DNA of 33,070 nt from a virus. This document shows, piece after piece, positions 23,764 through 33,070 of the stretch (position 1 is its first letter; every line of letters begins with the position of its first letter). Under the pieces are notes generated by a model. It had not been told where the DNA came from. It saw only the letters and a list, made by a program, of their open reading frames with translations, and did no database searches. The stretch lies in UHGV virus genome UHGV-1834275. One strand, written 5' to 3'. The position numbers and the translations under genes are program-made.

Positions 23764-24702
23764 ATGAAACACATAATCCAAACCAGAAGTGTTTTTAAGG
23801 ATATCGAAGACTCTTTATTTAGTGAGTTGCATTCAGCTAAGACAAGTATCAAAATCTGTGTTGCATGGATAAACTTTGAGCTTTTTGAAAATATATTATT
23901 ATCTAAGGCTAAAGAAGGTGTTGAAGTTGAGATATTAGTTAATAATGATTATATCAATACAAAATTTCTTGATAAAATATCTGATAATATAAAACCATTA
24001 ATTAATCTAATTAAAAACCCTATTAGTAACCACTTAATGCATCATAAATTTTGTATCATTGATGATGAAGTTTTGATTACTGGCAGTTATAATTGGTCAA
24101 AAAGAGCACCATATCATTATGAAAATATAATAATCATCCGTAATGATTTCAATCTAATAATGCAATTTAAACATGAGTTTGCAGATTTAAAATACATGGG
24201 TGCAATGCCAAGTACAGAATTTAATGCATTTAAAGTAACCAAAAATCTCAATAGATTTGTTGTTGGCACATATAGTTCATCTGTGGGGATATATGAAACC
24301 GTCACATTGCAGTTATGGGAAATTGATATTAACAACTTAACTTTTGAACGACATGGCGAAATGGATATCCCTTTCTTCAATTATTTATTAGATATTAATA
24401 CTGATGATCATTATCTTATTGATGAAAAAGAAAGGTACATCGATCTATATGATCAAGAGCGTAGACAGATGGAGACTATCCAAAGTCATTTTAGAAGATT
24501 AAATTGTTCAATTCATGCTTATGGAACAGCAATAATAGCGAACGAGAGCGAATACCTTGAAGGTTATGAAGAGCCTATTCGTGTAATTCACTTCAATTGG
24601 ATAGATATGCGATTAAGCAAAGTATTACCCTCTTCTTTGCCCGCAACTATGGAACTTGAAGGATTATGGCACGAAATATATGCTCCAAATGGATATATTT
24701 AA
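23764..24702 (+). CDS. Phospholipase-D-family (single HKD) nuclease with an uncharacterised C-terminal domain
   Basis: Perfect HxK(x)4D(x)6GSxN motif: HHKFCIIDDEVLITGSYN; preceding KICVAWINFELFENILLSKAKEGVEVEILV typical of PLD/Nuc folds; ~170-residue C-terminal region without recognised motifs; AAGGA 7 nt upstream of the ATG. Confidence 0.8.
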   Translation: MKHIIQTRSVFKDIEDSLFSELHSAKTSIKICVAWINFELFENILLSKAKEGVEVEILVNNDYINTKFLDKISDNIKPLINLIKNPISNHLMHHKFCIIDDEVLITGSYNWSKRAPYHYENIIIIRNDFNLIMQFKHEFADLKYMGAMPSTEFNAFKVTKNLNRFVVGTYSSSVGIYETVTLQLWEIDINNLTFERHGEMDIPFFNYLLDINTDDHYLIDEKERYIDLYDQERRQMETIQSHFRRLNCSIHAYGTAIIANESEYLEGYEEPIRVIHFNWIDMRLSKVLPSSLPATMELEGLWHEIYAPNGYI

Positions 24703-26547: not shown

Positions 26548-27258
26548 ATGCTTAATCTCACTAAATGTAATTTACTTTTGATCGGCACTGTAATAACTCT
26601 ATTACTGATAGCTATTCTTGTAGGTATAAAAATACTATTCTCCGATTCTAATCCAGATCTAGGCAGCTTAGCAGATTGGATCAGTTCTGTATCCGCAATA
26701 GGGACTCTTGGTGTTGCCTGGTTAGCTTATAGTAAAGCTGATGACTACATTGACAAAAAAGCTTCGGAAAGAGGAATTGATATCCTTGTCAATATGGTAA
26801 CTGAATCATTCGTTGCTTATTTCAACTCACTAAATGAAACTAATTTCCATGCTTCAAAACTTGAAAATAAAATGATATTGATTGGCTTGGTTGATGAAAA
26901 AGTAGATTGCAATATTGAACTACAATCATTAAGAGAAAAAATCATAACTCTCTTCGAAAATAGTCATCAAATAGACAAAGATTTTATAAAAATGAAAATA
27001 ATGAAAATATCAAAACCCAGTGATATTTTCTACGATCCAGTAACTAGCGATGATACATTGCAAGCGTTAAAATTAGCATTTCATAAACTGAACACTGAAA
27101 TTTGTGAGAATGAAAATCAATACAACATTAATAATGATTTACTTAGCGAAAATATCAACTTTATTAAAAACACTACCGAAAAGTTAGCCCATGATATTCG
27201 CAAACAGTTCTTTACCTCGCCGAATACTTATAAAGATTATTTTGGAAATCTGTCTTAA
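26548..27258 (+). CDS. Membrane protein with two N-terminal TM helices; paralogue of 779..1519
   Basis: LLLIGTVITLLLIAILVGIKILF then DLGSLADWISSVSAIGTLGVAWLAYSK; shares the GSLADW(L/I)SS loop motif with 779..1519; soluble C-terminal domain diverged. Confidence 0.6.
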   Translation: MLNLTKCNLLLIGTVITLLLIAILVGIKILFSDSNPDLGSLADWISSVSAIGTLGVAWLAYSKADDYIDKKASERGIDILVNMVTESFVAYFNSLNETNFHASKLENKMILIGLVDEKVDCNIELQSLREKIITLFENSHQIDKDFIKMKIMKISKPSDIFYDPVTSDDTLQALKLAFHKLNTEICENENQYNINNDLLSENINFIKNTTEKLAHDIRKQFFTSPNTYKDYFGNLS

Positions 27259-27303: not shown

Positions 27304-28002
27304 ATGACTACTCTCACTAGAACTTATAATTTACCAAATGAGCTAGTTGAACATTTTTCAAATAACATTGTCTATTTCGAAAAACTTTTGTCTAAGGATT
27401 TTTCTGACTTAAATGTTAATGTAGCACCAGAAGACATTAAGAAAATAGAAAAATCTTTCGAAGTATCACATAGAATACGTGATTTCGAAATCAATCTGTA
27501 TTGGCAAAGACTGAACTTCCTTTGGGCCATTACAGCATTGCTATTTGCTGGATGGGGAACATTGATCTTTAAAATCATCGAATTCAATGGAGGGGAAGCA
27601 CCTTATATTATATTTGCCGCCTTATCATTTCTCTCACTTATAGGTGGGATTGTAACTATATTCACAAGCTTTATCATTGAGGCAGGTAAGCATTGGCAAA
27701 AGGTTTGGGAGTTTCATGTTCACGCTCTTGAACCTTTTGTATCAGGTCATTTATATGCAATTCAGTTTTCTTATAAAAATAAAAAAAAGGCATCTATAAG
27801 TAGAAGCGTAGAAACTTTCAATTATGCTTTGCTGTTTCTTTGGGCATGTTCAGCAGTATTCGCCGCAATCATCCCTTCACAAATAGGGAACGGTCTTGCA
27901 GGCATTATCCAATTAGTTATTTCTCTTCTTATAGTTGGTGCTTTTGTTTATATACGCAACTCTGTTACTAAAAAGGAGTCTATTAAAATTCAGCTTGATT
28001 AA
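27304..28002 (+). CDS. Integral membrane protein (about 4 TM helices) with ~65-residue soluble N-terminus
   Basis: AAGGAAAG ribosome-binding site; hydrophobic segments LNFLWAITALLFAGWGTLIF, YIIFAALSFLSLIGGIVTIFTSFII, FNYALLFLWACSAVFAAII, LAGIIQLVISLLIVGAFVYI; 45 nt downstream of the 2TM gene, same strand; followed by a terminator. Confidence 0.6.
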   Translation: MTTLTRTYNLPNELVEHFSNNIVYFEKLLSKDFSDLNVNVAPEDIKKIEKSFEVSHRIRDFEINLYWQRLNFLWAITALLFAGWGTLIFKIIEFNGGEAPYIIFAALSFLSLIGGIVTIFTSFIIEAGKHWQKVWEFHVHALEPFVSGHLYAIQFSYKNKKKASISRSVETFNYALLFLWACSAVFAAIIPSQIGNGLAGIIQLVISLLIVGAFVYIRNSVTKKESIKIQLD

Positions 28003-28022
28003 TGTAGCATAAGGCATCTACT

Positions 28023-28232
28023 TTAAGCAGCCCCATAATGGGGCTTTCTTTTTTTAGCATTTACTTTTTGAATGCTCATAAGAATCTCACGTACCTTTGC
28101 TTCATTATCACCTGCATCATATAGTACCCCATCTTTCCAGTACTGACCCAGTAGTTCTACTTTTGGTAAGCCCGGCATTGCCCTTACTCCATCTTCGTGA
28201 TCAATATGTAATTCAAGTGATCCAATAATCAT
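28023..28232 (-). CDS. Small hypothetical protein (questionable)
   Basis: ORF only; its last ~10 codons are encoded by the plus-strand terminator hairpin and T-run. Confidence 0.3.
   Translation of the reverse strand: MIIGSLELHIDHEDGVRAMPGLPKVELLGQYWKDGVLYDAGDNEAKVREILMSIQKVNAKKRKPHYGAA
28029..28055 (+). terminator. Rho-independent terminator of the 26548..28002 membrane-protein operon
   Basis: AGCCCCA (28029..28035) / TGGGGCT (28039..28045) stem, 3-nt loop, then TTCTTTTTTT. Confidence 0.6.
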
Positions 28233-28429
28233 TGCACGAAAGTTGTTAGGGTTAATTGAAAGTATTCTGCATCGTCTGGTTGTAGTTCAGCGTAATATTC
28301 TGGTGTGCTATCAAATGTAATTTCATTATTGATCATTACGCCCTGTGTATTTACTGCATATCTACGTTGTTTCATTCGGTCAAATAATAGTATTCCTTTC
28401 ACGCGGTGATATGTTGTTAGTTCCCTCAT
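28229..28429 (-). CDS. Small hypothetical protein
   Basis: ORF with 4-nt overlaps to both neighbours (operon-like). Confidence 0.4.
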   Translation of the reverse strand: MRELTTYHRVKGILLFDRMKQRRYAVNTQGVMINNEITFDSTPEYYAELQPDDAEYFQLTLTTFVQ

Positions 28430-28689
28430 TTGGTTAGTCCTTGGTAGTAAGCCTTAGTAGCTCTGATATTGAATTCTTTGTTTAGGTGTGTATATGATGG
28501 CATATGCCCGTTATCCGTCATGTATCGCTCTATGTAGGCCGTAAGTAGTTCTAACTTGGTTGGGCTTACATCTGGTGTATCACTCAATAGAGAGCGTTTA
28601 GGGGCGTTATAGAGGCCATCACTTCGACCGCCTTGATTCTTGATATTGTGGCGTAGTGTATTCCACTTACCGGGCTTTTGTTTTGGCAT
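28426..28689 (-). CDS. Small basic hypothetical protein (start at ATG 28689 rather than track start 28755)
   Basis: AGGAG about 9 nt upstream of ATG 28689; translation begins MPKQKPGKWNTLRHNIKNQGGR; first gene downstream of the repeat-rich control region. Confidence 0.45.
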   Translation of the reverse strand: MPKQKPGKWNTLRHNIKNQGGRSDGLYNAPKRSLLSDTPDVSPTKLELLTAYIERYMTDNGHMPSYTHLNKEFNIRATKAYYQGLTK

Positions 28690-28755
28690 AGTATTGTACT
28701 CCTGTACTGGTTGATTAATTGGGGCGGCGACTCGTTCACACCTGCGGCGGTTCAC

Positions 28756-29156
28756 TGCGTGGCGACTTCAAGAGACTTTGAATAACTGACTTTCAGTAGT
28801 ATCTCTTGAGTACTTACACCTACTGGAGTGAGCGAAAGCGAGAAAAGCACGCTTGCGGGTTTTCGATGCGATAGCGAGAAAAACGCAATGTGATACCCTT
28901 ATGTGTTTTTTATAGGGATAATAGATAAGACGCTTTAGCGGATTAGCTATTATCCCTCTGAATAATAGATATGGCGTATTTTATATCTGTTTTTCATCTT
29001 TCCATTAGAAAGTAGGATAATTATAATAGGTTGGAAAGATGCCATTTTGCCCCCCATTTTAACGGTAGAATGCGGGTTTCAGGGGTGTTGTTGGCCATAT
29101 TTTCACACCATCTTTCCATCAAAGGGATTCCCACGCTAAACAGTTGGAAAGATGAT
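28756..29156. promoter_or_regulatory. Repeat-rich non-coding control region (candidate operators / iterons / attachment-type site)
   Basis: Four copies of TTGGAAAGATG or its complement in alternating orientation (28995..29004, 29032..29041, 29109..29118, 29145..29154), forming two inverted pairs with 26-27 bp spacers; perfect 10-bp inverted repeat GGGATAATAG / CTATTATCCC (28915..28924, 28947..28956); direct repeats of AGCGAGAAAA and ATAATAGATA. Confidence 0.5.
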
Positions 29157-29633
29157 TTATAGTGAATTTATGTATACCTTGATACTTCCTAAGCTAGTTC
29201 CATCCCTCATCATCTGGTGTACTTTCTTTTTTTCGTGCTGTGTTAGCTGTCGTGCATCACCCTTTAGTGCATACTTGATCATTACGCCGTGATTGTATGC
29301 CTCTAATAGTTCGTGTGCGGCCTTTACTGCAATGTTTCTATAATTATATAGCATTGACTTGTTTAGCGGCTTCTCGTTCCATTTCATGCGATTCTGGCGG
29401 CGAGTATTCACGGTATGTTGTACTTCCTCTATTCCAATCATAGGACACTCTAAAACCAGCTTTAGGATCTCTAACCTACTAACCTTAGTACGGCTAGTGG
29501 TTCCTTCAAACTCTTTAGTAATGACTTCATCAATAATATCTATTGCTTCTGGTGTAAACTGATTCAAAAACTTATAACCTGATAAAACGTTGTGTAAGTC
29601 TGTATTGTCGTATAATTTCTTTTTTCCTGCCAT
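29157..29633 (-). CDS. Hypothetical protein, possible regulator (start placed at ATG 29633)
   Basis: AAAGG about 10 nt upstream of ATG 29633; C-terminal ARQLTQHEKKKVHQMMRDGTSLGSI could be a helix-turn-helix; no firm family assignment. Confidence 0.45.
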   Translation of the reverse strand: MAGKKKLYDNTDLHNVLSGYKFLNQFTPEAIDIIDEVITKEFEGTTSRTKVSRLEILKLVLECPMIGIEEVQHTVNTRRQNRMKWNEKPLNKSMLYNYRNIAVKAAHELLEAYNHGVMIKYALKGDARQLTQHEKKKVHQMMRDGTSLGSIKVYINSL

Positions 29634-29708
29634 AATAAATACCTTTATAAAATGTGTTATGTTCCTTAATGGCGTTATGGTGTTTTCTCCCACCATAACG
29701 CCTTTTTA

Positions 29709-30194
29709 TTAGTTGTCTTTTGCAACCTTTGTATATGTCTGTCTATGTGTACTTCTATTGTACTTTTCATTCATGAATAGCGTGATATTGATACATGACA
29801 TTCCACCAGTGTATAACGCCTTTACTTCATCTTTTTGTACTGGTGTTAGACGTGGTTCATTTTGTTTCTTACGTACTGCCTTACATGAATTTTCACTATA
29901 TGTAATCCACTGCAAATTAGAAATATTGTTGTCTCGTTTATCACTATTGATATTATCTACAACTAATCTTTTATTTGTTTGGGGTTTACTTAGAAATGTT
30001 TCTGCTACGAGTCTGTGTGTCTCTATCGGATATGATTTAGATTTCCCATCCTCATAAACAGTTAAAGTAACTTTATAGTACCCATTACTTTTACTATAAC
30101 TCTGTGTTAGATAATTACCCGTTTTAGTATTGCGTACTTCTCCGTTACTACTTACTTCATAATTTACATATTGTGTTTGTTTCCATAATGTCAT
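29709..30194 (-). CDS. HNH homing-endonuclease-like protein (NUMOD4-like N-terminus plus HNH_3-like core)
   Basis: YEVSSNGEVRN...NGYYKV...HRLVAETF...VDNINSDKRDNNISNLQWITYSEN matches the phage free-standing HNH endonuclease pattern (Y.VS..G.V...G....h.lva..f.....v.H.d..k.nN...NL.w.t..eN), but with Asn where the first His is expected. Confidence 0.7.
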   Translation of the reverse strand: MTLWKQTQYVNYEVSSNGEVRNTKTGNYLTQSYSKSNGYYKVTLTVYEDGKSKSYPIETHRLVAETFLSKPQTNKRLVVDNINSDKRDNNISNLQWITYSENSCKAVRKKQNEPRLTPVQKDEVKALYTGGMSCINITLFMNEKYNRSTHRQTYTKVAKDN

Positions 30195-30272
30195 TTTCTC
30201 TTCCTTGGACTATGGGGTACTGTGCAATCCTTGCAAGTACATGAGTAATACTTTTTACGATAGTATCAAACG

Positions 30273-30494
30273 TTATTGATTTTCGATTAGTAGTTTGAAA
30301 GTTGGAAAATTCATCCTTTCAAATAGTTCTGTATGTAGTTTACGTGTTGTGTGGTAATACTTCATATCTTTATAGAAATCAGAATGGATTACCGTATTAC
30401 AGTACGTTTTACCATTTGGTTTAGATACATCTGCAATTAGTACATTGTCGGTATCGGTACGTACATTGTTAAAATGGAATTCGCCAAAGTTCAT
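30273..30494 (-). CDS. Hypothetical protein, translationally coupled to the upstream RHH ORF
   Basis: ATG overlaps the stop of the 51-aa ORF (TAATG); GGAGGA upstream; no recognised motif. Confidence 0.5.
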   Translation of the reverse strand: MNFGEFHFNNVRTDTDNVLIADVSKPNGKTYCNTVIHSDFYKDMKYYHTTRKLHTELFERMNFPTFKLLIENQ

Positions 30495-30649
30495 TACTTC
30501 TTTCCTCCTAAGATTACTTGTTGATTGAGTAGATATTGTAAAGCGGTACTCATTGATTTTGCTTTCCCTTCATCAATGATACTTTGTAGTACATTGTGTT
30601 GATGTTCGTTTAGACGTGCTGATACTTTGTATTCTTTATTTTCTTTCAT
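30494..30649 (-). CDS. Ribbon-helix-helix (Arc/MetJ/CopG-like) DNA-binding protein, 51 aa; not in the supplied track
   Basis: Translation MKENKEYKVSARLNEHQHNVLQSIIDEGKAKSMSTALQYLLNQQVILGGKK: short beta-strand (KVSARL) followed by two helices, typical of RHH repressors or antitoxins; AAGGA about 7 nt upstream of the ATG. Confidence 0.5.
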   Translation of the reverse strand: MKENKEYKVSARLNEHQHNVLQSIIDEGKAKSMSTALQYLLNQQVILGGKK

Positions 30650-30847
30650 TGATTTTCCTTTTGTCTGCAAATCCTTAAAAATTTCATGTAAAAATCACCC
30701 CGTAGGGATACGGGGTAATAACAAAATCTAAGGAGGAGGGATTTTAATATTCACACTTATTTATGAGATGAGAGCGGTCGCCCCCTTCATATACTATTAT
30801 TATATCACATTTTGCCCATTTCGTCCCAGAAATCGACAAAATCAATT

Positions 30848-31012
30848 TTAAGTGGCTGATTTATATGTATTTATTACAGAAGTCGCGATTATCGCCATAA
30901 TGCATAAGAAGAGATATACTAAAAATGCAATGTATAGATAAACTATCCACCCGGTGATCATAAACACCATACCTACCACTAATACAAAAGCACTGACTAA
31001 CCAATCTAACAT
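30848..31012 (-). CDS. Small hydrophobic membrane protein (54 aa); not in the supplied track
   Basis: ATG at 31012 preceded by AAGGGG; translation MLDWLVSAFVLVVGMVFMITGWIVYLYIAFLVYLFLCIMAIIATSVINTYKSAT (two hydrophobic helices). Confidence 0.4.
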   Translation of the reverse strand: MLDWLVSAFVLVVGMVFMITGWIVYLYIAFLVYLFLCIMAIIATSVINTYKSAT

Positions 31013-31058
31013 AGTTTCCCCTTATAATTATTATGTACAATTATTTATCAATAAGACG

Positions 31059-31097
31059 AAAAAAAGCCCCGTAATGCGACATCAATCGATACGGGGC
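31059..31097 (-). terminator. Rho-independent terminator downstream of the recombinase gene
   Basis: On the minus strand GCCCCGTA (31090..31097) / TACGGGGC (31066..31073) 8-bp stem, 16-nt loop, followed by TTTTTTT (plus-strand A7 at 31059..31065), about 75 nt after the recombinase stop. Confidence 0.6.
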
Positions 31098-31171
31098 ATA
31101 ACAACTACTACTATATTATTTTTTGTTTACGGTATTTCTAATCTACTTTCTAGGCCAAAATAAATGCCCGT

Positions 31172-33070
31172 CTAGATCTGGTCTATCCGATAACGCTCTA
31201 TGAACTCTTTACGTGTTAAACCAGTCGATTCTAATGCAGTGGCTATATCCTTTGGAACTCGACCATTCAAGGCAATACTATATGTATTGCCTTCATACAC
31301 AATGTCTACTCGATCATACTTTCCGGTATTAGGCCAGAATGAAGCCCCACTTATTTCACTATAACCAACCACTTCTAACATCTCATTAGCAGTATTGAAC
31401 AGATCTAAATAACTTTGTTCAATTTTATCAAGTTGTTCCACTGCTTTATTAAATAATGGCAGATTGCTAGTGGTAAGAAATCCTTCATCTCTGATACTTA
31501 CATTATCAACAGAAGAAAATTCAACTTTAAACGCCCAATGTGGTTTTCTATCAGTTCCACCAAAAACTAACCATTCATCTTTAAAATGATACTTTATTTT
31601 TATCGTTATACACCCATCAGTTTTATCAACTATAACACTTTCAATAATAGAACTAATTACTTTCCTTATTTTATTTCTATCCGTATCCTGCATATTTGTA
31701 AAAACCGCCCACTGAATAAGAATCATAAATTCATTTATATCGACTTCTAGAGATCCTTTACCTTTCAGTGAATATAAGCGTTCTTTTAACTTATCAACTT
31801 CCAGAACAGTCTTTTTACGTTCCATATCAAACGCATTTAGTTGAACTGCTAACGCACTAACATTAGGAGCAATTGCTATTGCTTGAGCCATGTTTGTTAT
31901 GCGAGATTCCAGATCAGTTATCAACGTTTCTTTTCTACTGAGGTCTTCTTCTATCACAGTTGTGTCAATACCATCTTTTAGTCTCTTATTCATGTAACCG
32001 ATCAGTAGTGAAATGATCGTACAGTGTTCAACTAATTGTGCTGATATAGACCAGCCAGAACAGTTTTTTTGTAAGTGAACCCCATTAGTACAAATATAGC
32101 GAGCACTGCCATGATTCATGAAAGAATGCATAGTTCCTCCACACTTGCTACACCGTAACACCTGCAACCCTGATAACAATTTAATTTCTTCTACTTTGTC
32201 TTTCTTAGCCTTGAAGTTGTTTTGCTGCTTACGTTCAGCCAAGGTTAAATACTCTGCTTCATCTTTGCATAACCATGGATAGTAGTTATCAAGTTTGTAA
32301 GTAGCACCACCAGCATTGATAGTCCTTTCACCAATCAACGCCCGATTATCACGCATCTTTTTCAATACCTGATAATCCCATTCTTTACCCTTTAAACCAT
32401 TAGGATATTTTTTATCGAGATGACGCTTTACTGTATAGATGCCATTCCCATCTAAAAACATGTCTATAGCTTCGCGAGCGATACTCCAGTAAACGGGATG
32501 TTCTTTTACTGCTTCATATTGCGAACCTGAATCATCTATCCAAAATGGATGGCGACCAACTGACTTAATGTTTACTGGCAACCCTGCTTTATGACGTTCG
32601 ACCAAGGCAACAACATTGCCTATGGTCCTGTTAGATTTCGTTTCTGATTCTTCATTGCCACGGATAAACATCAGAATAGAAATCATCAGATCAGTAGGGT
32701 TTTGTCTGATGGATTCTCTGTTATAGACCTTCCGATCCATTCCTGTGACAATCGTTAGCCCTAAACCAATCAATTCAAGGAATAAACGAAGTGCTTCATC
32801 CACCTGATCGCGTGATAGTCGGTCGAGGTTTTCACAGTAAAGCCAAGAGTCAGACGGTATAGCATTATTTTTTACGGCGTCTATGAAGTCACCCAACTTA
32901 CCCGCCCTATTTTTTCCCCTGTAAGCACTCGTGCCAGGTTCCAAAATTTCAACCATTTCAAGCCCCGCTTCTTCAGCATAGGCTTTCGCTGCCGCTACCT
33001 GCCTGTTCTTGGTTGTTCCTTTTTCTTGGCGATCACTTGACCACCTGATATAGCTATAAAGTTGCGGCAT
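31172..33070 (-). CDS. Large serine recombinase (phage integrase of the resolvase/invertase superfamily)
   Basis: N-terminus MPQLYSYIRWSSDRQ has the catalytic-serine motif (Y.R.SS..Q) of serine recombinases; 632 aa with Cys-rich region (CSKCGGTMHS...CTNGVHLQKNCSGW) and long C-terminal extension typical of large serine integrases. The start codon is at the last base of the window. Confidence 0.85.
   Translation of the reverse strand: MPQLYSYIRWSSDRQEKGTTKNRQVAAAKAYAEEAGLEMVEILEPGTSAYRGKNRAGKLGDFIDAVKNNAIPSDSWLYCENLDRLSRDQVDEALRLFLELIGLGLTIVTGMDRKVYNRESIRQNPTDLMISILMFIRGNEESETKSNRTIGNVVALVERHKAGLPVNIKSVGRHPFWIDDSGSQYEAVKEHPVYWSIAREAIDMFLDGNGIYTVKRHLDKKYPNGLKGKEWDYQVLKKMRDNRALIGERTINAGGATYKLDNYYPWLCKDEAEYLTLAERKQQNNFKAKKDKVEEIKLLSGLQVLRCSKCGGTMHSFMNHGSARYICTNGVHLQKNCSGWSISAQLVEHCTIISLLIGYMNKRLKDGIDTTVIEEDLSRKETLITDLESRITNMAQAIAIAPNVSALAVQLNAFDMERKKTVLEVDKLKERLYSLKGKGSLEVDINEFMILIQWAVFTNMQDTDRNKIRKVISSIIESVIVDKTDGCITIKIKYHFKDEWLVFGGTDRKPHWAFKVEFSSVDNVSIRDEGFLTTSNLPLFNKAVEQLDKIEQSYLDLFNTANEMLEVVGYSEISGASFWPNTGKYDRVDIVYEGNTYSIALNGRVPKDIATALESTGLTRKEFIERYRIDQI

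What the first reader, a model, noticed from the sequence alone, without database searches (positions are those of the whole stretch)
30273..30649. Unannotated RHH protein translationally coupled to a 73-aa protein (repressor pair or toxin-antitoxin-like module)
A 51-codon ORF with a ribbon-helix-helix-like sequence and a good ribosome-binding site overlaps the start of the next ORF by one base (TAATG). Small RHH proteins act as phage immunity repressors (Arc/Mnt-type) or as antitoxins, and either role would matter for the lysogeny or defence biology of this element. The partner has no recognised toxin motif.
Basis: partly seen in the sequence, partly recalled or inferred. Interest (0 to 1): 0.45.

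Follow-up and report, generated by a model that had tools for sequence, protein, structure and literature searches.

The report
Small RHH regulator heading a prophage early operon
The 51-codon gene encodes a genuine ribbon-helix-helix DNA-binding protein that is always the first gene of the early/replication operon in an undescribed group of enterobacterial prophages. Its 73-codon neighbour is an optional passenger gene, not a toxin partner.

Summary
Both ORFs exist on the minus strand: RHH 30494..30649 and the 73-aa ORF 30273..30494. They share one base (TAATG) and each has a Shine-Dalgarno sequence.

In about 45 related loci the gene sits in one slot: large serine recombinase, ~50-aa membrane ORF, promoter plus leader terminator, RHH, then replication genes.

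The gene after the RHH varies. It is an unrelated small ORF, an HNH endonuclease, or the replication protein itself. The 73-aa protein occurs in only one sublineage. It is under purifying selection and matches no toxin family or known fold. The RHH has no tail that could neutralise a toxin, so a toxin-antitoxin reading is not supported.

RHH identity does not track integrase identity, which argues against an excision factor.

My best reading is inference: a CopG/Arc/Cro-like autorepressor of the early promoter, which carries a 34-bp palindrome over its -35 region.

Conserved flanking RNA-like elements (a leader terminator with a CU-rich box, and a GGA-loop hairpin) are the more unusual observations.

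The parts
30494..30649 (-). 51-aa ribbon-helix-helix protein gene, first cistron of the early operon
30273..30494 (-). 73-aa accessory ORF, start overlapping the RHH stop by 1 nt. Function unknown; predicted beta-rich.
30799..30828 (-). Promoter-like site TGGGAC-N18-TATAAT with TG at -15/-14. It is the only such site in the window and the putative early promoter.
   Evidence: 1 match against 0.05 expected. The same box and spacing occur upstream of the RHH in most related loci. The generic sigma-70 scan did not flag it because the -35 is non-canonical.
30809..30842 (.). 34-bp palindrome (14-nt arms, 12/14 complementary, 6-nt centre TGGGAC) over the -35 region. Candidate operator.
   Evidence: I3. 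One search gives z = 3.7 against shuffles of the same promoter fragment. L014 has a perfect 8-bp-arm variant. Binding by the RHH is inferred, not shown.
30689..30719 (-). Intrinsic-terminator-like hairpin (11 pairs) plus T-run in the leader, 45-70 nt upstream of the RHH ATG
   Evidence: A hairpin plus T-run at the same distance was detected in all 27 distinct leaders extracted, though not all by the stricter scan. Stem sequences differ between lineages.
30727..30740 (-). C/U-rich box CCCTCCTCCTTAGA just 5' of the leader terminator
   Evidence: A family-wide box (A)ATCTCCTCCAAG lies at -72..-99 from the RHH ATG. It tends to pair with a purine box 3' of the terminator: mean z -1.16 over 27 leaders, not phylogenetically independent. 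In the window it is also the best complement in 4 kb to the SD region of the 73-aa gene, at -19.8 kcal/mol.
30217..30240 (-). Hairpin GTACTTGCA-AGGAT-TGCACAGTAC with GGA in the loop. The loop GGA lies 36 nt before the HNH start, and a second GGA in that gene's SD (30204..30202) lies 26 nt downstream.
   Evidence: It is present in 15 of 24 lineages examined, in front of whatever gene follows the RHH unit. The three inner pairs are canonical in 11/11 sequences, with 2-4 pair types each.
30848..31012 (-). 54-aa hydrophobic ORF conserved between the integrase and the RHH leader
31172..33070 (-). Large serine recombinase (prophage integrase), followed by its own terminator at 31059..31097
   Evidence: Pfam Resolvase, Recombinase and Zn_ribbon_recom. 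Inverted repeat I14.

Best explanation
The 51-aa protein is a minimal ribbon-helix-helix DNA-binding protein: beta-strand about residues 7-13, helices 15-26 and 33-46, and no extra domain. It is the invariant first cistron of the early (replication) operon of an uncharacterised lineage of ~30-35 kb temperate phages of Enterobacteriaceae. These phages integrate with large serine recombinases. I propose that the RHH dimerises and binds the palindrome over the -35 region of the strong promoter about 150 nt upstream of its own gene. That would give negative feedback on the operon that goes on to encode the replication functions. This is the logic of CopG-repB on pMV158, ORF56-ORF904 on pRN1, Arc-ant in P22 and cro in lambda. 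An intrinsic terminator in the leader further limits read-through into the RHH gene. The 73-aa gene is a lineage-specific early passenger gene that borrows the RHH cistron's ribosomes through the TAATG overlap. It is not a partner of the RHH. Shown here: the genes are real, the fold is RHH, the position is conserved, the partner is variable, and the RHH is independent of the integrase type and of the replication-module type. Inferred: DNA binding, the identity of the operator, and repression.
For: Fold: with weaker sequence support. Nearly invariant K5, Q17, G28 (inter-helix loop) and Q38, and an alternating x-[VI]-[STGA]-[VAL]-[RK]-[LI] strand. Conserved slot: every locus with enough upstream sequence has a serine recombinase 270-1470 nt upstream. 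The genes downstream are helicase- or primase-like proteins of 458-1020 aa, or a ~160-180-aa protein plus repeats. In L041/L042 the RHH stop overlaps the start of the 665-aa replication protein itself. RHH, promoter and leader travel as one cassette. They are identical or near-identical in the window, the E. coli loci and L014, while the integrase (about 15% identity x coverage) and the replication module differ. A significant palindrome lies over the -35, and this is the only such promoter in the window. No CI-type or HTH repressor gene was found in the ORFs scanned against Pfam and PHROG (27 kb onward plus selected others).
Against: No binding or expression data exist. Palindromes at the promoter are significant in only some lineages (window, L014, L015, L020). 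The family-wide mean z is only 0.8, so the operator assignment is weak. No recognisable promoter lies between the leader terminator and the RHH ATG, so the RHH is made only by read-through. It is unclear how that feeds into the circuit. Pfam RHH models do not reach threshold for this protein. If this is the only regulator, how lysogeny is maintained remains unexplained.
Confidence: 0.55

Rival explanations
1. The RHH is the prophage's master immunity (lysogeny-maintenance) repressor, like Mnt in P22 or F55 in SSV1. It would be made at low level by read-through of the leader terminator and would shut its own strong promoter, and hence all early genes.
For: No other repressor candidate was found in the ORFs scanned. 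The RHH plus promoter cassette is mosaic and diversified, with variable DNA-facing strand residues, as immunity regions usually are. There is a palindrome over the -35.
Against: The gene is co-directional with the replication genes and upstream of them, in one case translationally coupled to them. Any expression of the repressor would therefore also express lytic functions. No terminator-like site was flagged on that strand in the window between the 73-aa gene and the HNH gene (covering 28000..31300), and the GGA-loop hairpin there has no T-run. No sensor or cleavage domain for induction is present.
Confidence: 0.2
2. The RHH is the recombination directionality factor (excisionase) of the adjacent large serine integrase.
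For: It is a small basic protein encoded near int and placed in the early operon, as small serine-integrase RDFs are (from my own knowledge of TP901-1 Orf7 and SPbeta SprB; not tested here).
Against: RHH identity does not follow integrase identity. The window and L014 have 100% identical RHH proteins but integrases with about 15% identity x coverage and different insertion sites (next to a radical-SAM/TRAM gene versus the yegD/HSP70 gene). Spearman correlation is 0.17 over 300 pairs.
Confidence: 0.08
3. The RHH and the 73-aa protein form a type II toxin-antitoxin or abortive-infection pair.
For: There are two small genes with an RHH first and a 1-nt overlap.
Against: The pair is not conserved. 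In 24 distinct lineages examined, only the one sublineage that shares the identical RHH cassette (window/E. coli/L014 type) carries the 73-aa gene. The RHH has no C-terminal extension. There are no toxin-family hits by sequence and no fold hit. The operon continues into replication genes.
Confidence: 0.03
4. The RHH is an accessory DNA-binding factor for replication-origin, partition or relaxosome-like functions rather than a transcription regulator.
For: It lies next to replication genes. A few family members give weak Pfam hits to NikA-like, MobC_2 and ParG-like families.
Against: The same RHH protein is combined with two unrelated replication modules. One is the 645-aa protein. The other is HNH plus a 179-aa protein plus repeats. 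No relaxase or partition ATPase was found in the ORFs scanned.
Confidence: 0.07

Closest known systems
CopG (pMV158) and ORF56 (Sulfolobus plasmid pRN1) copy-control repressors
   Different: This one sits in an integrating phage rather than a plasmid. A promoter-proximal leader terminator and variable passenger genes lie between the elements. There is no sequence-level membership of Pfam RHH_1/CopG. Autorepression is untested.
Arc repressor of phage P22 (immI: Pant-arc-ant)
Lambda Cro, and P2 Cox or 186 Apl (functional analogues)
   Same: [quoted passage not shown]
   Different: A different fold (HTH or winged helix against RHH). No divergent repressor gene or lysogenic promoter is visible here.
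RHH antitoxins (ParD, Rv0298, VapB12, CopA_SO, HicB)
   Different: There is no toxin-binding C-terminal region, no conserved partner, and no recognisable toxin.
Viral RHH regulators SvtR (SIRV1) and F55 (SSV1)
   Different: Those are archaeal viruses. Sequence identity is 4%, and the genomic context is unrelated.

Membership tests
Ribbon-helix-helix (MetJ/Arc) superfamily, by fold | N-terminal beta-strand followed by two helices joined by a short Gly-containing turn | tested here: met
Ribbon-helix-helix (MetJ/Arc) superfamily, by fold | Obligate dimer forming a two-stranded antiparallel ribbon that enters the major groove | not testable with these tools
   Only a monomer could be modelled. DSSP shows no strand in the monomer, as expected.
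Pfam RHH_1 / CopG family (PF01402) | HMM score above the gathering threshold | tested here: not met
   No Pfam hit at E<=1 for the window protein. Only 5 of 55 family members give weak RHH_1 hits, best E 0.002.
Type II toxin-antitoxin module | The antitoxin carries a toxin-neutralising region besides its DNA-binding domain | tested here: not met
   The protein ends about 5 residues after helix 2.
Type II toxin-antitoxin module | Toxin and antitoxin genes co-occur as a conserved pair | tested here: not met
   The 73-aa gene is present only in the sublineage that carries the identical RHH cassette (window, E. coli loci, L014). Other lineages have unrelated ORFs, an HNH gene or the replication gene after the RHH.
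Type II toxin-antitoxin module | The toxin belongs to a known toxin fold or family, or is toxic when expressed alone | tested here: inconclusive
Arc/Mnt-type repressor pair | Two RHH repressors acting on one immunity region | tested here: not met
   The 73-aa protein is predicted to be mostly beta (strands 3-13, 19-24, 30-36, 65-71) and has no RHH signature.
Serine-integrase recombination directionality factor | Specific partnership, and hence co-variation, with its integrase | tested here: not met
   Identical RHH proteins occur with integrases of about 15% identity x coverage. Spearman correlation is 0.17.
CopG/ORF56-like replication-operon autorepressor | Encoded upstream of the replication gene and co-oriented with it, in one operon | tested here: met
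   There is a direct stop/start overlap with the 665-aa replication protein in L041/L042.
CopG/ORF56-like replication-operon autorepressor | Binds and represses its own promoter | not testable with these tools
   The only support is a candidate palindrome over the -35.

The most novel reading that the evidence does not exclude
These prophages have no CI-type repressor, and the RHH is one part of an unconventional early-operon switch. A strong constitutive promoter would make a ~105-nt terminated leader RNA. Its CU-rich (anti-SD-like) box pairs with purine boxes or ribosome-binding sites on read-through transcripts. In the window the best complement is the 73-aa gene's SD. The gene after the RHH unit would be held off by a GGA-loop hairpin plus a GGA-containing SD, of the kind bound by host CsrA. 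Lysogeny and early expression would then be set mainly by RNA-level and termination control tied to host physiology, as in P4 CI RNA, P1 c4 or lambda sib/tI, with the RHH giving transcriptional feedback.
Probability: 0.15. Interest if true: 0.7.

Novelty: new member of a known kind. Interest (0 to 1): 0.35.

Why it matters
The result assigns a fold and a likely role to a protein family that no Pfam, PHROG or NCBIfam model covers. It identifies that family as the one invariant small gene at the head of the early operon in a widespread but uncharacterised lineage of serine-integrase prophages. These occur in E. coli, Citrobacter and Pseudocitrobacter. The best large-terminase match to any isolated phage is 36%. 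It removes a tempting but unsupported toxin-antitoxin or defence annotation. It also shows that whatever controls lysogeny here lies in a ~650-bp cassette that is now defined well enough for direct tests. The cassette comprises the promoter palindrome, the leader terminator with its CU box, the RHH gene and the GGA-loop hairpin.

Tried and rejected
- Sequence libraries. Pfam, PHROG, NCBIfam and PADLOC scans of both proteins gave no meaningful hit. phmmer against PDB sequences gave none.
- Public genome collections. Megablast of the region against phage and plasmid collections gave none. tblastn of the RHH against phages gave none.
- Rfam. A scan at E<=1 over 28000..31300 gave only a spurious histone stem-loop.
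- Homology among the coupled ORFs. hhalign of the 73-aa family against the 87/91-aa coupled ORFs of other lineages gave probability 0.1%, so no homology can be shown.
- A promoter for the RHH alone. I looked between the leader terminator and the ATG. A recurrent TTTACA overlaps the T-run, but no usable -10 follows it, so I rejected this (sequence inspection).
- A family-wide operator palindrome. It is significant only in some lineages, with mean z 0.8.
- The CU box as a conserved anti-SD for the RHH's own ribosome-binding site. The RHH translation-initiation region ranks poorly as a target in most loci.
- A second GGA in the RHH 5'UTR as a CsrA dual site. GGA is not enriched once the SD is discounted.
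- A small ORF antisense to the leader. It is present in L007, L020, L025 and L030 but absent in the window, L014 and L050, so I rejected it.
- Consensus RNA folding. RNAalifold on a MAFFT alignment of the leaders gave no consensus structure because stems of unequal length were misaligned. MAFFT also misaligned the GGA hairpins, so I counted pairs on a gapless, loop-centred alignment instead.

Full report
**Observation**

Both ORFs lie on the minus strand.
- The 51-codon ORF runs from ATG 30649 to TAA 30496..30494.
- The 73-codon ORF runs from ATG 30494 to TAA 30275..30273.
- The two share one base in TAATG.
- AAGGA lies 6 nt before the first ATG, and AGGAGG lies 9 nt before the second.
- An in-frame TTG at 30670 would add 7 residues. 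It has no SD, and the family alignment begins at MKE.

**Where the window comes from**

The window is a ~33-kb prophage with GC about 37%. Its layout on the minus strand, unless noted, is as follows.
- A large serine recombinase lies at the right end, 31172..33070.
- A 54-aa hydrophobic ORF follows, and then the two ORFs in question.
- Next come a NUMOD4/HNH_3 endonuclease, a 179-aa ORF and a repeat-rich gap at 28756..29156.
- Next come small ORFs, and then plus-strand cargo genes (an 8xMP family protein, a 236-aa ORF and a PLD-like protein).
- Finally come the small terminase, a GpA-type large terminase and the structural genes.

Public matches:
- The best match is Pseudocitrobacter faecalis DSM 27453, at 99.6% over 8.6 kb.
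- E. coli draft genomes carry 96.5-98% identical prophages next to a radical-SAM/TRAM gene.
- Nothing similar is in the phage or plasmid collections.
- The large terminase is at most 36% identical to that of any isolated phage.

**Is the 51-aa protein an RHH?**

Library HMMs and PDB sequences give nothing for the single sequence. An exhaustive profile search of 1.84 billion representatives found 56 proteins at E<=1e-3. Nearly all are 46-72 aa long.

Their alignment has the consensus MKExKxxxVxVRLNExQxxxLxKLIxxGKAKxxSxAIQYLIN. K5, Q17, G28 and Q38 are nearly invariant. The N-terminal stretch alternates polar and hydrophobic residues.

Evidence for the fold:
- The family profile weakly hits the NikR RHH domain (E 0.003), ParD and MazE9.
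- Five members weakly hit Pfam RHH_1.
- With this alignment AlphaFold gives pLDDT 91. The model has an extended N-terminus and helices 15-26 and 33-46.

I accept the RHH fold. The dimer could not be modelled.

**Context across relatives**

I gathered about 45 loci and located the RHH gene in each with an HMM. Every locus with enough upstream sequence has a large serine recombinase 270-1470 nt upstream. A ~50-aa hydrophobic ORF usually lies in between.

What follows the RHH varies.
- A start codon overlapping or abutting the RHH stop leads into a 73-aa ORF in the window, E. coli and L014 types.
- In other lineages the coupled ORF is unrelated: 87/91 aa, 96/101 aa or 198 aa.
- In L041/L042 the coupled gene is the 665-aa replication protein itself.
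- Elsewhere a gap of 57-132 nt precedes an HNH endonuclease or a 650-1020-aa replication protein.

The Citrobacter relatives, whose RHH is 77% identical, have no 73-aa gene. The RHH is therefore the constant feature and its neighbour is interchangeable. Translational coupling is a property of the slot, not of this pair.

**The 73-aa protein**

It is a real gene. Pairwise dN/dS is 0.2-0.5. Against the E. coli allele, the differences are confined to codons 24-62, between flanks that are identical at the nucleotide level. That is a mosaic pattern.

It has no family, toxin or defence hit. The model is of low confidence (pLDDT 62, mostly beta) and has no significant structural neighbour. Its function remains unknown.

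**Toxin-antitoxin and repressor-pair readings**

Several points argue against them.
- The pair is not conserved.
- The RHH has no tail beyond helix 2.
- No toxin signature is present.
- The operon runs on into replication genes.
- The partner is not an RHH.

I give the TA reading about 3%.

**Excisionase (RDF) reading**

The window and L014 encode identical RHH proteins. Their integrases share only about 15% identity x coverage and use different insertion sites. Across 300 locus pairs the two identities are barely correlated, with Spearman 0.17. An integrase-specific RDF would not behave this way.

**What travels with the RHH**

Its upstream region travels with it. The window, the E. coli loci, L011 and L014 share a nearly identical ~200-bp region. 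The integrase differs between them, and so does the replication module (window 28669..30272 is replaced in the E. coli loci, where a 645-aa gene sits).

The region contains three elements.
- A promoter-like site TGGGAC-N18-TATAAT with a TG extension, at 30828..30799. It is the only one in the window (1 found, 0.05 expected). The TTGGGAC box, its spacing and TATAAT recur in most lineages.
- A 34-bp palindrome centred on that box, at 30809..30842, with 12 of 14 arm positions complementary. It scores z = 3.7 against shuffles.
- A leader of about 100 nt that ends in a strong intrinsic-terminator hairpin plus T-run, at 30719..30689.

A hairpin plus T-run starts 52-78 nt upstream of the RHH ATG in the lineages scanned, and one was detected in all 27 distinct leaders extracted. 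The stem sequences differ between lineages. I found no usable promoter between the terminator and the RHH start.

**Mechanism proposed**

This is inference from anatomy and from the known behaviour of minimal RHH proteins (CopG, ORF56, Arc). The RHH dimer, or dimer of dimers, binds the palindrome over the -35 and represses the promoter that drives its own operon. That would buffer expression of the replication genes. The leader terminator sets a low read-through level.

The same facts also fit a role as the immunity repressor, because no CI-like gene was found in the ORFs I scanned. However, co-transcription with lytic genes argues against that role. I rate the two readings 0.55 and 0.20.

**Other conserved elements in the same cassette**

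These were noticed and only partly followed.

1. A C/U-rich box lies just 5' of the leader terminator.
   - In the window it reads CCCTCCTCCTTAGA, at 30740..30727. The family consensus is AATCTCCTCCAAG.
   - The box tends to pair with a purine box 3' of the terminator. Mean z is -1.16 over 27 leaders and the t-test gives p about 1e-5, but the sequences are not independent.
   - In the window its best complement within 4 kb is the SD region of the 73-aa gene, at -19.8 kcal/mol. No common target appears across the lineages.

2. A strand-specific box TGATAAATAA lies only in the region between the integrase gene and the RHH gene, in 21 of the 32 loci held at that point.
   - The window copies are at 31050..31041 and, as TCATAAATAA, at 30766..30757.
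   - It is unexplained.

3. A hairpin with an N-GGA-N pentaloop lies between the RHH unit and the next gene.
   - It was found in 15 of 24 lineages examined.
   - The loop GGA lies 31-36 nt before the start codon in 12 of the 15, and 21-23 nt before it in the other three.
   - In 13 of the 15, a second GGA in that gene's SD lies 20-26 nt downstream (10 nt in one case).
   - In the window the hairpin is at 30240..30217 and the SD GGA is at 30204..30202.
   - The three inner stem pairs are canonical in 11 of 11 sequences, with 2-4 pair types each. Sliding the partner by 1-2 nt drops pairing from 0.67 to 0.24-0.41.
   - GGA in hairpin loops, together with a site at the SD, is the usual recognition pattern of CsrA (PMC11052181, PMC13443453). 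The match of these loops to the CsrB repeat or the SELEX consensus is from my memory only.
   - This stretch explains the 50-bp, 90% match to six complete E. coli genomes. There it lies after a 46-aa RHH homologue annotated 'hypothetical protein', in a prophage inserted in yegD.

**Verdict**

The pairing with the 73-aa protein is incidental, and the TA and defence readings are not supported.

This is a new, unannotated family of a well-known kind of protein, in an uncharacterised prophage lineage. The surrounding RNA-like elements and the apparent lack of a classical repressor are the parts most worth experimental follow-up.

Noticed in passing
window 30689..30847 (minus strand): A strong promoter-like site is followed by a ~100-nt leader. 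The leader ends in a C/U-rich box (CCCTCCTCCTTAGA) and an intrinsic terminator just upstream of the RHH gene. The same layout occurs in nearly all of 27 distinct related leaders. There is no Rfam match. It could be a terminated small RNA or an attenuator. The CU box tends to pair with a purine box 3' of the terminator.
   Followed up: partly
window 30217..30240, with SD at 30202..30204 (minus strand): A conserved hairpin with GGA in a pentaloop lies 31-36 nt before the start of the gene that follows the RHH unit in 12 of the 15 lineages that carry it, and 21-23 nt before it in the other three. In 13 of the 15 a second GGA sits in that gene's SD. The stem shows compensatory changes across lineages. 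This is the pattern typical of CsrA-bound mRNAs. The surrounding 50 bp are 90% identical in six complete E. coli genomes.
   Followed up: partly
window 31041..31050 and 30757..30766 (minus strand); 21 of the 32 loci then held: A strand-specific 10-mer, TGATAAATAA (TCATAAATAA in the leader copy), is found only in the region between the integrase gene and the RHH gene, in one or two copies per locus. It lies sometimes upstream and sometimes downstream of the promoter. Its function is unknown.
   Followed up: partly
window 28669..30272: This is a module swap. In otherwise 96.5-98% identical E. coli prophages the block is replaced by a 645-aa gene with no Pfam hit, which is probably a replication protein. 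In the window the block holds an HNH endonuclease, a 179-aa ORF, the repeat region and the 5' part of the 109-aa ORF. Citrobacter relatives have the HNH plus ~160-aa arrangement.
   Followed up: partly
window 28994..29155: There are four copies of CATCTTTCCA/TGGAAAGATG, arranged as two inverted pairs about 114 nt apart. There are further direct repeats and a 38-nt imperfect palindrome at 28897..28974. The region looks like an origin and lies after the 179-aa ORF.
   Followed up: no
window 30273..30494, codons 24-62: All differences between the window's 73-aa gene and the E. coli allele fall in the middle of the gene, between flanks that are identical at the nucleotide level. This suggests a recombined or rapidly diversifying segment.
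   Followed up: partly
ORFs scanned: 27 kb onward plus selected others: No CI-like or HTH repressor gene was found among the ORFs scanned. The only plus-strand genes are cargo-like. They are an 8xMP membrane protein (27304..28002) with a 236-aa partner (26548..27258), a PLD-like nuclease (23764..24702) with a 124-aa ORF, and a lysozyme (3244..3696). Citrobacter relatives carry an OLD-family nuclease in the same slot.
   Followed up: partly
window 30848..31012 (minus strand): A 54-aa hydrophobic ORF is conserved between the integrase and the RHH leader in almost all relatives. It lies between the integrase's terminator upstream and the leader terminator downstream. Its role is unknown.
   Followed up: no
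window 30727..30740 versus 30497..30513: The leader CU box is complementary to the SD region of the 73-aa gene (AAUCUUAGGAGGA). At -19.8 kcal/mol it is the best duplex within 4 kb. In L017 the best target of the equivalent box also lies at the 3' end of the RHH gene.
   Followed up: partly
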